From Octopus vulgaris (lineage: Eukaryota): a DNA stretch of 64,000 nucleotides. Where the stretch lies: the NCBI GenBank assembly GCA_951406725.2, contig OX597824.1, forward strand, positions 91,946,001 to 92,010,000, given 5' to 3'. Shown piece after piece: positions 4,939 to 24,313 of the stretch. Position numbers and translations under genes: made by a program. How positions within the stretch are numbered: position 1 is the first letter of the stretch; every line of letters begins with the position of its first letter. Under the pieces are notes generated by a model. That model was not told the DNA's origin. It did no database searches and saw nothing but the letters and a program-made list of their open reading frames with translations.

Positions 4939-5578
4939 GTAATTATTATTATTATTGTGGAGCTATCTTCCACTATAACCCTGCACCGACAACTGTGATG
5001 TAAGTAAGTTATTTGGCAGACGGAAACTGTGTGTTTGTTTGTGTTTCACATCTGCTTTTCATGACTTAAATCCTTATTCTTAGGAAGGAGCTGGTTTCTA
5101 TCAAAATCTTGTTCCACTTACAAATGCAATTTGTAATGTGTGAAGTTAGCTGGTTGTTTTCTTCGGAAAGCATTAGCTTTTCCAAATTGTCACTTAGGCA
5201 TTTATTCACTAAAGCAAGTGCACCAATTATTATTGGTAGAAATATGAATTTATAATCTGGAAGATGACGGTTTCAAAGCAGTTTCCAATTGTTATTCTCC
5301 TGCTCTTTGATTTCTAAAGACCTATTCACATCAGGAACACAGCTGACCACTATGACGGCACATACTTTTCTTGTCTGTCCCAAATGTCTGTGTGTGTGTA
5401 TGTATATATATATATATATATATATAAGTAGATAAATGAATTAACTTATTACGGATAATTCGAAAAATAACCGATACCTGGGTAGCAAACTCACAACAGA
5501 AAGAACACGGTTGAAGTTACGACCATAGGGCATATACTCCGTGCCTTAGTGCGGAAATTTGAAGTTTAATTTAATATT

Positions 5579-21480: not shown

Positions 21481-21488
<8 letters not shown>

Positions 21489-21586
21489 TCAATATAGGTG
21501 GCAAAAAAATTTTGTAGAATTTTTTGCCACCAGCGGCCTAGTGGGAAAAATTAAATAGTCATAGACCATTTTAAAGTTCAACATCA
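21481..21586 (-). repeat. Inverted partial unit heading the tandem array
   Basis: Reverse complement of 21640-21745 (tgatgttgaac...attgattaattat). Confidence 0.9.
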
Positions 21587-21900
21587 TTGGCTGTTATTTC
21601 TAGTGGGTGAATGGCCTATTATGGCCGTTCCTTGATTGTTGATGTTGAACTTAAAAATGGTCTATGACTATTTAATTTTTTCCCACTAGGCTGGTGGCAA
21701 AAAATTCTACAAAATTTTTTTTGCCACCCTATATTGATTAATTATGAATTTTCTGGTTAATTCCGTAATGGAATCGACGGCTTATATTTATTTGCTGCCG
21801 ATAAATTTGCTGCGAGTGCGACGATTTGAAAATTTTAGGTCAGATATAACCTTGGCAAGGTCGGAAATGCCTCGTGAAAATATCTGTTCCGACTTGGGCT

Positions 21901-22007
21901 ATTTCTTACTGAAGAATCTGAGGGCCTATGGAAGATTGGCTTGATTTAATTTAATCAGGTTAGTTTACCATTAATCAGCAGATGAAACGGTGCATCGTAT
22001 AAGAAAT
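21901..22007 (+). ncRNA. Type I hammerhead ribozyme, copy 1 (predicted cleavage after A21999)
   Basis: ATTTCTTA-CTGAAGA-ATCTG-[58 nt]-CAGAT-GAAA-CGGTGCATCG-TA-TAAGAAAT: 8-bp stem I, 5-bp basal stem II, near-palindromic stem III ACGGTGCATCGT, GUA site. Confidence 0.9.
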
Positions 22008-22392
22008 TACAGGGTAAATGTTTTTTAAATTTTCTCCTGGTTTACGGAATTAATTTTTATTTGCGGTTGAAGCTTTGGCTGTTATTTCTAGTGGGTGAAT
22101 GGCCTATTATGGCCGTTCCTTGATTGTTGATGTTGAACTTAAAAATGGTCTATGACTATTTAATTTTTTCCCACTAGGCCGCTGGTGGCAAAAAAATTCT
22201 ACAAAATTTTTTTTGCCACCCTATATTGATTAATTATGAATTTTCTGGTTAATTCCGTAATGGAATCGACGGCTTATATTTATTTGCTGCCGATAAATTT
22301 GGCGCGAGTGCGACGATTTGAAAATTTTAGGTCAGATATAACATTGGCAAGGTCGGAAATGCCTCGTGAAAATATCTGTTCCGACTTGGGCT

Positions 22393-22499
22393 ATTTCTTA
22401 CTGAAGAATCTGAGGGCCTATGGAAGATTGGCTTGATTTAATTTAATCAGGTTAGTTTACCATTAATCAGCAGATGAAACGGTGCATCGTATAAGAAAT
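22393..22499 (+). ncRNA. Type I hammerhead ribozyme, copy 2 (predicted cleavage after A22491)
   Basis: Same sequence as copy 1, offset 492 nt. Confidence 0.9.
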
Positions 22500-22883
22500 T
22501 ACAGGGTAAATGTTTTTTAAATTTTCTCCTGGTTTACGGAATTAATTTTTATTTGCGGTTGAAGCTTTGGCTGTTATTTCTAGTGGGTGAATGGCCTATT
22601 ATGGCCGTTCCTTGATTGTTGATGTTGAACTTAAAAATGGTCTATGACTATTTAATTTTTTCCCACTAGGCCGCTGGTGGCAAAAAAATTCTACAAAATT
22701 TTTTTGCCACCCTATATTGATTAATTATGAATTTTCTGGTTAATTCCGTAATGGAATCGACGGCTTATATTTATTTGCTGCCGATAAATTTGGCGCGAGT
22801 GCGACGATTTGAAAATTTTAGGTCAGATATAACCTTGGCAAGGTCGGAAATGCCTCGTGAAAATATCTGTTCCGACTTGGGCT

Positions 22884-22990
22884 ATTTCTTACTGAAGAAT
22901 CTGAGGGCCTATGGAAGATTGGCTTGATTTAATTTAATCAGGTTAGTTTACCATTAATCAGCAGATGAAACGGTGCATCGTATAAGAAAT
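22884..22990 (+). ncRNA. Type I hammerhead ribozyme, copy 3 (predicted cleavage after A22982)
   Basis: Same sequence as copy 2, offset 491 nt. Confidence 0.9.
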
Positions 22991-24313
22991 TACAGGGTAA
23001 ATGTTTTTTAAATTTTCTCCTGGTTTACGGAATTAATTTTTATTTGCGGTTGAAGCTTTGGCTGTTATTTCTAGTGGGTGAATGGCCTATTATGATATAT
23101 ATATATATATATATATATATACGATATATATACGACTTCAACCACATCTCTAGGCTAATATTGAGATTTATACTGCAATATGTGGCGTGCTACAGGGTTA
23201 GATATTTCAAAAATAATTATTTCACGTTCTCCCGAATTTTTATAGAATACGTATGACATAGAGAGAATGGGAGAATAGGAGACTGAGAGAAAGAGAATCG
23301 GAGAGAACATTAAACTTTCTTATTTGTATTTCACAAATGTCCAGAAATTTAATTCAGTCTGTTAGTATTATCTAAGATATAATATTCTGTATCGTGTGTA
23401 TGTGTGTGCTACCGTATGTGTGTGGGTGTATGTATAGATATAAGTATATATGTATGTGTATATATATATATGTATATATATACATATGAACTTATACATA
23501 TACTGTATAAGCATATATATCTAATGTAACATGATGTTATATTATATATATATATATGTATATATATTATCTAATGTATATTGTTTCGAAGTCAGAAGAA
23601 AACACGAAAAAATTTGAGAGAAGCTCCACAATTCTGTAGTTTGGAAGCGCATTGATAGTAAATAAATACACACACACACACACACTCACACACGCACACA
23701 CACTCTGACATTCATACTTCACAGCTACATGAGCACCCAAACACGCACACATACACATGGAGATAAGGAAAAGGCCTTAAATGCGCACGCACATACCTTA
23801 ATTGGTATACACACTCTCACACACACATATATATGCACGTTTATTTATATGGTAAATATATATATATATATATATGTATAGTTACACACGCACAAACAGA
23901 TATATATATATACATAGATAGAGAGTGAGAGAGAGAGGGAGAGAAAGCCATATATATATAATGTTATAGCTATATATGCTGGTGTATATATATATATATG
24001 TATATATATATACACACATGCTAACATTTGTCAAAGGAAGCTGAAATTGCAGCCTGAATGAATTGACTTTAAAAAATGTTTAATGTCTATTGTCAGAATT
24101 AACTGCAAAAACGGATTCCAAATCTTGGTGTCCTTCATGTCACAAGTAATTTTTTTGTCACAAGTAATTTTTTGTATATTCTTATATGAGTCGCTTTTAC
24201 TGTTTTTTTTCTTATTTATATCGGATAAACAGTAATATTTTTCAAGCTTCCTTCTAAACAACTTATTTAAAGGTGGTATGTGAGATTTTGATATATTCAA
24301 CGACAGAGACAGG

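What the first reader, a model, noticed from the sequence alone, without database searches (positions are those of the whole stretch)
21909..21999. Atypical hammerhead architecture: 58-nt structured insertion in stem II plus palindromic stem III
Seen: between ATCTG and CAGAT lies a 58-nt insert that folds as ATGG/CCAT plus a 13-bp G-U-rich helix GATTGGCTTGATT/AATCAGGTTAGTT capped by TAATTT. Stem III (ACGGTGCATCGT) is nearly self-complementary. Established: typical metazoan and Penelope HHRs have short stem II hairpins, and palindromic stem III is associated with dimeric cleavage. Inference: this variant may be missed by standard HHR descriptors. It may cleave as a dimer between neighbouring units, which would tie processing to tandem arrangement. 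The insert could carry the stem I-II tertiary contact or a protein-binding site.
Basis: partly seen in the sequence, partly recalled or inferred. Interest (0 to 1): 0.72.

Follow-up and report, generated by a model that had tools for sequence, protein, structure and literature searches.

The report
Pseudoknotted long-armed hammerhead in retrozymes
A young jumping repeat of a known class carries a hammerhead (self-cutting RNA) motif with an unusually long side arm; paired sequence changes across its subfamilies indicate that a loop in this arm likely base-pairs with the RNA just upstream to brace the fold, and that neighbouring copies likely cut as pairs, though cutting is untested.

Summary
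Observation confirmed. 21909-21999 is a complete type I hammerhead core in each of three 492-bp units of a young non-coding repeat with thousands of genomic copies in (TA)n and Penelope-type two-armed insertions: an animal retrozyme, a known class. Earlier scan notes already describe this family and its insertions on other DNA. The 58 nt are not a copy-specific insertion but a clade-wide extension of stem II: 5 bp, internal loop, then a long hairpin kept mostly by wobble changes. New here: the loop's 5' strand (GGCCU, 21923-27) is complementary to the five bases preceding stem I (GGGCU, 21896-900). Two pairs changed on both sides in separate lineages (218 compensated copies against 7 mismatched at one pair), and strand spacing co-varies. 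This predicted pseudoknot likely replaces the canonical loop I-loop II contact; it mirrors the GCCR:YGGC pseudoknot of published type III hammerheads. The stem III palindrome holds in 88 of 98 variants and a double hammerhead is favoured in silico, so dimer cleavage is likely, but that is long known. No cleavage, circle or partner enzyme is shown. New variant of a known kind.

The parts
21481..21586 (-). Inverted, 5'-truncated arm of the insertion (unit positions 129-238), ending at the 'long' fixed 3' end in (TA)n
21587..23094 (+). Tandem array, 3.1 units of 492 bp, 99% identical; starts at unit position 76, ends at 112 into (TA)n (unit position 1 = 22000)
21869..21876 (+). GCCTCGTG, motif shared by families A and B upstream of the ribozyme; role unknown
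21896..21900 (+). 5' strand of the predicted pseudoknot (GGGCU), contiguous with stem I
21901..21908 (+). Stem I, 5' strand (8 bp with 22000-22007)
21909..21915 (+). Core C3-A9 (CUGAAGA)
21916..21920 (+). Stem IIa, 5' strand (5 bp with 21979-21983; closes on A10.1-U11.1, not G-C)
   Evidence: 5 of 5 pairs with changes on both sides
21921..21927 (+). Internal loop, 5' strand; 21923-27 (GGCCU) is the predicted pseudoknot partner
21928..21971 (+). Distal hairpin of stem II: 4 bp, 1x1 loop, 14 bp G.U-rich helix, UAAUUU loop
21972..21978 (+). Internal loop, 3' strand; A-rich and of variable length in other subfamilies
21979..21986 (+). Stem IIa 3' strand and core G12-A14
21987..21998 (+). Stem III, 12-nt palindrome: 4-bp hairpin in a monomer or 12-bp duplex between two units
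21999..22000 (+). Predicted cleavage site after GUA (A21999)
   Evidence: consensus hammerhead numbering; not measured
22000..22007 (+). Stem I, 3' strand
22100..22131 (+). Hairpin plus CCTTGATTG before the 'short' fixed 3' end (unit position ~132)
22184..22237 (+). Hairpin plus CCCTATATTG before the 'long' fixed 3' end (unit position ~238)
22387..22499 (+). Second, identical ribozyme copy
22878..22990 (+). Third, identical ribozyme copy

Best explanation
This is a type I hammerhead motif in a 492-bp tandem repeat with Penelope-type insertions, and its long stem II is likely a bracing arm: the internal loop five pairs from the core is predicted to form a 4-5 bp pseudoknot with the bases just 5' of stem I, likely doing the job of the canonical loop I-loop II contact. 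Shown: core, helices, family-wide long stem II, compensatory changes, palindrome conservation, insertion geometry. Inferred steps: (1) arrays are transcribed as multimers; (2) stem II and the pseudoknot fold within one strand, upstream of the cleavage site, so they would be ready whichever cleavage strand pairs with stem I; (3) because the monomer stem III is worth about 0 kcal/mol and the duplex about -17, neighbouring units would swap strands and cut as a double hammerhead after GUA, releasing 492-nt monomers; (4) monomers would be circularised by a host ligase as reported for other animal retrozymes, and a lone circle, lacking a partner, would be slow to re-cut; (5) a Penelope-like RT/GIY-YIG enzyme would copy the RNA into (TA)n from two fixed start points. 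The distal hairpin likely serves to close the internal loop and hold its 5' strand in place; its sequence and length are free to vary.
For: Stems: 95.4% of 3456 cells paired against 88.0% in shuffles and 29-46% when slid; stem I 6 of 8 and stem IIa 5 of 5 pairs change on both sides. Pseudoknot: pairs b, c, d, e paired in 95, 94, 98, 87 of 98 variants (anchored on the GG/CC so biased upward); on a tree built from downstream sequence, pair d goes C-G, U.G, U-A along family B and pair b goes G-C, A.C (one solo copy), A-U in subfamily A4, on branches of 5-6% divergence; genome-wide 218 A-U copies against 7 A.C copies, none of the 7 amplified; cognate duplexes -5.87 against -5.07 kcal/mol permuted, 1 of 20000 (not corrected for kinship); distances of the two strands from the core co-vary, 8/7, 7/7, 6/5, 5/5, rho 0.60. 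The family-B rows came from a pattern that did not ask for either strand. Precedent: pseudoknots brace about 40% of hammerheads and their loss cuts rates by orders of magnitude (PMC3088659, section 7). Dimer: 88 of 98 variants fully self-complementary in 9 different 12-mers; centre TGCA 85, TATA 8; double hammerhead -185.3 against two monomers -173.5, unconstrained -186.4. Element: 3900 exact 30-mer matches, control 0; 33 of 35 two-armed insertions have one short and one long end.
Against: No cleavage, circle or strand-specific RNA data; all laid runs were contigs and only guessed to be RNA. The pseudoknot rests on two independent double changes plus wobbles; outer pair a is paired in only 49 of 98, and e fails in 11; some subfamilies keep 3 pairs. 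Searches asked for pseudoknot letters, and 9 rows with cut or rearranged flanks were dropped before aligning, one of them an A.C copy. A second long-stem-II family (C/D/E, about 590 bp) shows no such pairing, so a long stem II does not need it. Pair 10.1-11.1 is unpaired in 36 of 98 and some subfamilies have U4C. In longer folding contexts the III:III duplex forms but swapped stem I does not (<=0.14). An array with a mismatched palindrome centre was amplified (L101). No autonomous partner with shared sequence was found.
Confidence: 0.68

Rival explanations
1. Same element and pseudoknot, but the ribozyme cuts well as a monomer; the pseudoknot makes up for the weak 4-bp stem III and the palindrome is an inherited, dispensable trait.
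For: A 4-bp stem III with a tetraloop is possible, -2.9 kcal/mol in subfamily A4; invertebrate retrozyme hammerheads cut efficiently as monomers (PMC7229834); TACA centre in an amplified array; only the two inner pairs tell dimer from monomer.
Against: Inner pairs kept in 96 and 94 of 98 with GC to AT double change in two clades; monomer fold of the window copy pairs the core with stem III into an inactive form.
Confidence: 0.15
2. The long arm is mainly a platform (double-stranded RNA for a host protein, ADAR or the Penelope RT, or a stabiliser of the circle); the GGCCU/GGGCU match is incidental or serves some other fold.
For: The distal hairpin is kept in all subfamilies, even with a different AU-rich sequence (B5), and is longer than closing a loop requires; C/D/E keep a long arm without the pseudoknot; shared variants show A>G 22 against T>C 10.
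Against: Double changes and matched spacing at the pseudoknot; private variants go the other way, A>G 5 against T>C 24, so editing is not established.
Confidence: 0.12
3. The motif is catalytically dead or nearly so; the repeat spreads as read-through RNA copied by a Penelope enzyme and the fold is a relic.
For: 8 of 9 Xenopus retrozyme dimers did not cleave in vitro (10.64898/2026.07.22.740005); non-canonical 10.1-11.1 pair; array ends do not map to the cleavage site.
Against: Core letters C3, G5, A6, G8, A9, G12-A15, U16 invariant in 98 of 98 rows (partly by how rows were picked) across 25-29% divergence, with H17 only A or C and compensated stems I and II.
Confidence: 0.05

Closest known systems
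Animal non-LTR retrozymes (Cervera and de la Pena 2020, PMC7229834, parts 1-4 of 6 read, supplement unreadable; Li et al. 2026, 10.64898/2026.07.22.740005, parts 1-3 of 5 read)
   Same: Non-coding tandem units, one type I hammerhead each, low GC, dispersed, structured unit (z -5.1), co-occurring Penelope-like elements.
   Different: Stem II region of 68 nt instead of a 4-bp hairpin; predicted Watson-Crick pseudoknot instead of the conserved loop 1-loop 2 contacts; 12-nt stem III palindrome; 492 bp exceeds the 170-400 nt of the 2020 paper but lies within the 51-972 bp of the 2026 preprint. Mussel hammerheads were reported to lack the archetypal contacts; their figure could not be seen.
[quoted passage not shown]
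   Same: 5-bp stem, internal loop whose 5' strand GCCR pairs with YGGC on the other helix, capped by an extra hairpin; subfamily B5 here has GCCA and UGGC exactly.
   Different: Helices swapped: there the internal loop is in helix I and the partner is terminal loop II; here the loop is in helix II and the partner is the open 5' flank of stem I, in a type I motif with a dimer-type stem III.
Pseudoknotted hammerheads of types I-III (Perreault et al. 2011, PMC3088659, passages and section 7 read)
   Same: Base-paired stem I-stem II contact, stem lengths constrained by it, forms within one strand.
   Different: Mostly microbial, short stem II; highly repetitive type I motifs were excluded from their stem-length analysis. 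Figure 2B examples and Dataset S1 not seen.
Penelope-like elements (Craig et al., 10.1101/2021.04.23.441226, passages; PMC4209133, passages)
   Same: Partial tandems, inverted 5'-truncated arm, a tail on one end only, (TA)n targets, palindromic stem III.
   Different: No ORF; tail about 105 bp rather than 30-40; PLE hammerheads are minimal or have helix II of 6-8 bp.

Membership tests
Type I hammerhead ribozyme | Core C3 U4 G5 A6 N7 G8 A9 / G12 A13 A14 A15 / U16 H17 | tested here: met
Type I hammerhead ribozyme | Three helices around the core, stem I open | tested here: met
   compensatory changes in stems I, IIa, III
Type I hammerhead ribozyme | Match to a curated Rfam hammerhead model | tested here: not met
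   short-stem motifs of this genome are missed too
Type I hammerhead ribozyme | Self-cleavage after H17 | not testable with these tools
   only contigs were available
Canonical (S. mansoni-like) type I hammerhead | 4-bp helix II with terminal loop 2 contacting an internal loop of helix I | tested here: not met
   stem II runs into an internal loop and 18 further pairs
Pseudoknot-braced hammerhead | Four or more conserved pairs between stem I and stem II regions, with covariation | tested here: met
   two independent double changes; structure not probed
Dimer-cleaving hammerhead | Weak, palindromic stem III in tandem copies | tested here: met
Dimer-cleaving hammerhead | Dimer faster than monomer | not testable with these tools
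   needs kinetics
Non-LTR retrozyme | Non-coding tandem units each with a type I hammerhead, dispersed in the genome | tested here: met
Non-LTR retrozyme | Expressed as linear and circular monomer RNA | tested here: inconclusive
   element covered and flanks uncovered in 4 of 4 runs guessed to be RNA; contigs cannot show ends or circles
Non-autonomous Penelope-like element | Tandem/inverted insertions with one-sided tail in microsatellites | tested here: met
   33 of 35 two-armed insertions
Non-autonomous Penelope-like element | Sequence shared with the pLTR of an autonomous element | tested here: inconclusive
   no similarity in 42 GIY-YIG loci beyond one truncated retrozyme piece; only 150 of 6136 candidates were scored

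The most novel reading that the evidence does not exclude
A type I hammerhead wiring not found in my searches: the whole bracing contact (stem II internal loop to 5' flank) is built on the enzyme strand alone, so the ribozyme is a pre-folded, strand-swapping unit that cuts only when a second copy supplies stem III. Cleavage would then sense multimers or neighbouring molecules while the circle stays closed, answering why animal retrozyme circles are not re-cut; it is the helix-swapped mirror of the GCCR:YGGC type III fold and gives a natural trans-acting scaffold with a long, freely variable arm for inserts.
Probability: 0.3. Interest if true: 0.66.

Novelty: new variant of a known kind. Interest (0 to 1): 0.48.

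Why it matters
The class, the palindrome and dimer cleavage are known. What this adds is a specific, testable architecture with natural compensatory variants in hand: thousands of animal type I hammerheads with a long stem II, one clade of which appears braced by a pseudoknot. It suggests where to look in retrozymes reported to lack the usual tertiary contacts (mussel), bears on the open question in PMC7229834 of what keeps retrozyme circles from re-cutting, and argues for descriptors that allow stem II of 60-70 nt (4263 matches against 42 in the control here).

Tried and rejected
Rfam: 0 hits in the window at gathering score; at E<=10 over 6 loci 123 hits, none a hammerhead, including two loci with short-stem motifs, so it cannot test the 'missed because long' claim. 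Insert-less relatives: short-gap pattern 161 matches against 75 control; of the first 100 listed none is a clean family-A deletion, one is an inversion junction and one a shortened C/D/E copy. Partner search: an intact 781-aa RT plus C-terminal GIY-YIG family with a Cx4CxxC linker ends in (TA)n, but shares no DNA with the unit, lacks the CCCTWWATTG end motif and gave no convincing hammerhead; 16 loci picked by the end motif held no such ORF. Upstream helix GTCGGAA/TTCCGAC (21860-93) is broken in subfamily A4, so I dropped it and the idea of a second, HDV-like ribozyme. 5' truncations at the cleavage site: the pile-up at unit positions 1-10 comes from my identity cut on diverged subfamilies; no conclusion. 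One RNA-guess contig ends at 21999 and one DNA contig joins 21951 to 22000; contigs cannot show ends, so not used. A-to-I editing as source of the G.U pairs: mixed result. Pseudoknot in family C/D/E: not found in 17 variants; one further family (L198, one insertion) gives only -3.5 kcal/mol. Metagenome scan: 47 matches, 0 complete a hammerhead. The MAFFT alignment does not register the pseudoknot or stem IIa columns 32-33 in family B and misplaces the shorter B5 hairpin, so the pseudoknot was counted by script, not. Lunse et al. 2016 is not held; known only through PMC6765202 passages.

Full report
1. Observation. The sequence at 21909-21999 is as described. It completes a type I hammerhead: stem I 21901-08/22000-07, core CUGAAGA, stem IIa 5 bp, 58 further nt, GAAA, stem III 21987-98 and a GUA site. 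The insert folds far better than its shuffles (z -3.9; 0 of 200) and only the + strand folds well. The motif occurs three times, identically, once per unit of a 492-bp array at 21587-23094. A descriptor finds 3 in the window and 0 in 40 shuffles.

2. The element. The window lies in a 2.8-Gb animal genome (earlier AI notes call it octopus or cephalopod, which I did not verify). The ribozyme region has 2187 candidates, the 40 scored being 98-100% identical; a 30-mer of the unit has 3900 exact matches, control 0. No ORF of 120 aa overlaps the array. Copies sit in (TA)n, are 5'-truncated, and often have an inverted arm. 3' ends fall at two fixed points, unit positions about 132 and 238, each after a hairpin and a CCT(W)(W)ATTG-like motif; 33 of 35 insertions with both arms visible have one short and one long end (the short bin is 105-140, and this window's array ends at 112). 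This is the partial-tandem, inverted, one-sided-tail geometry of Penelope-like elements (10.1101/2021.04.23.441226, passages). I noted the two ends before looking up earlier notes, which report the same for this and other families. The class is known: non-LTR retrozymes (PMC7229834; 10.64898/2026.07.22.740005).

3. The long stem II is a clade trait. A pattern allowing 56-80 nt between CUGANGA and GAAAC gives 4263 matches against 42 in the control; the first 100 show family A (this one), B (474 bp) and C/D/E (about 590 bp). With 6-36 nt there are 161 against 75, and no clean insert-less family-A copy among the first 100. I collected 98 distinct A/B variants from 90 insertion groups, dropped 9 with cut or rearranged 5' flanks, added 9 from further B subfamilies and aligned 98. 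Of 3456 cells 95.4% pair (shuffled 88.0%, slid 29-46%); stem I has 6 of 8 and stem IIa 5 of 5 pairs changed on both sides; the distal 18 pairs vary mostly on one side (12), once on both. Subfamily B5 has a different, shorter AU-rich hairpin. So the hairpin is kept, its sequence is not. The count of pairs with double changes alone (15) does not beat shuffles (136 of 500), and shuffles ignore kinship.

4. The contact. GGGCU (21896-900), contiguous with stem I, is complementary to GGCCU (21923-27) in the internal loop. I first saw G21897A with C21926T together in contigs. In the genome this double variant has 218 copies, the single A.C variant 7: two junction artefacts, three single units whose sisters are wild type, two solo copies. 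Family B, listed by a pattern that asks for neither strand, shows AGGUU/AACCU, AGGUU/GACCU, UAGGUC/GACCUA, UGGCU/AGCCG and UUGGC/GCCAG, and some 3-4 bp cases. On a tree from downstream sequence only (128 columns, many open forks) pair d steps C-G, U.G, U-A and pair b steps G-C, A.C, A-U, over 5-6% background divergence. Anchored counts: a 49, b 95, c 94, d 98, e 87 of 98. Cognate duplexes beat permuted ones (1 of 20000, kinship not removed). The two strands keep matched distances from the core (8/7, 7/7, 6/5, 5/5; rho 0.60 over 25 types), as expected if stems I and II pack side by side. The 3' loop strand is A-rich and variable. Against: two independent double changes is modest, the outer pair is often open, some rows were found with patterns holding pseudoknot letters, and C/D/E lack the pairing.

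5. Dimer. 88 of 98 variants are fully self-complementary over 12 nt, in 9 different sequences. The outer four pairs would also form in a monomer; the inner two would not, yet are kept in 96 and 94 of 98, with GC to AT in 8 from two clades of the tree. The monomer hairpin is worth -0.1 kcal/mol, the duplex -17.5. For two units a double hammerhead costs -185.3, two monomers -173.5, the free minimum -186.4; in longer contexts the III:III duplex persists but swapped stem I does not. These are equilibrium figures without pseudoknots. One array carries a mismatched centre. Dimer cleavage through a palindromic stem III is established (PMC4209133, PMC7229834, PMC6765202).

6. Mechanism. Shown: anatomy, conservation, insertion geometry. 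Inferred: multimeric transcripts; stem II and pseudoknot fold on one strand upstream of the cut; neighbouring units swap stem III strands and cut after GUA; monomers are circularised by a host ligase (by analogy with PMC7229834); a Penelope-like enzyme copies them from two start points. No partner was identified: an intact 781-aa RT/GIY-YIG family ending in (TA)n exists but shares no sequence with the unit. Four runs guessed to be RNA cover the element and not its flanks; they cannot show strand, ends or circles. That an A-U or mismatched 10.1-11.1 pair slows cleavage is recalled, not from a call.

7. Known versus new. Pseudoknot-braced hammerheads are common (PMC3088659, section 7). [quoted passage not shown] Here helices I and II are swapped. 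'Long helix II' in print meant 6-8 bp in the passages I saw (PMC13725137, PMC4209133); very long insertions are known for helix I (CLEC2; PMC6155905, passages); pDo500 passages gave nothing similar (PMC2837043). Searches found no description of a type I hammerhead with a 60-70 nt stem II braced this way, nor of cephalopod retrozymes; the library is incomplete, and the supplement of PMC7229834 (mussel motifs), Figure 2B and Dataset S1 of PMC3088659, bioRxiv supplements and Lunse et al. 2016 were not seen and could hold such a case. The short summaries of earlier scan notes on this family mention the long arm but not a pseudoknot.

8. Verdict. Real feature; member of a known element class; ribozyme a new variant with a specific predicted contact. 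Interest 0.48; best explanation 0.68; most novel reading 0.3, worth 0.66 if true.

Noticed in passing
L104, L105, L108, L123-L131, L139-L148: A second retrozyme clade (units about 586-594 bp) with stem II of 60-70 nt, 8-nt palindrome ACGTACGT, two fixed ends about 193 and 293 nt after the cleavage site and the same CCCTWWATTG end motif, but no pseudoknot of the A/B kind.
   Followed up: partly
L198:5602-5712 (+) and 5047-5157 (-): A third long-stem-II hammerhead (60 nt, palindrome ACAATTGT), two-armed in (TA)n; its 5' flank could pair with the start of the stem II loop (one insertion only).
   Followed up: partly
L230, L235, L236, L238-L241, L243, L247-L249: A solo family of about 200 bp in (TA)n with a short-stem-II hammerhead-like core (stem III loop not palindromic) and a pyrimidine-rich body; not in tandem.
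   Followed up: no
L061-L072; GIY-YIG loci L031-L060: Young Penelope-like family with an intact 781-aa RT plus C-terminal GIY-YIG ORF and Cx4CxxC linker, ending in (TA)n at two points about 36 nt apart; no hammerhead found by my descriptor.
   Followed up: partly
window 21869-21876 and 21802-21809: GCCTCGTG is conserved in families A and B upstream of the ribozyme; a possible partner (GCGCGAG in units 2 and 3) lies about 60 nt upstream. CAGATAT/ATATCTG (21842-48 / 21880-86) may form a further helix.
   Followed up: no
L191, L318, L323, L331, L335: Subfamily with U4C in the core (CCGAUGA) that still spread to several loci.
   Followed up: no
family A copies, 44 insertions: Strand asymmetry of unknown cause: private changes T>C 24 against A>G 5, shared changes A>G 22 against T>C 10.
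   Followed up: partly
L189:6262-6295: A compact canonical-looking type I hammerhead (4-bp stem II, palindromic stem III) near a truncated family-B-like copy.
   Followed up: no
L048 (G000:C30:5221180): GIY-YIG hit that looks like an exon of a cellular nuclease (SLX1-like, name recalled) rather than a retroelement.
   Followed up: no
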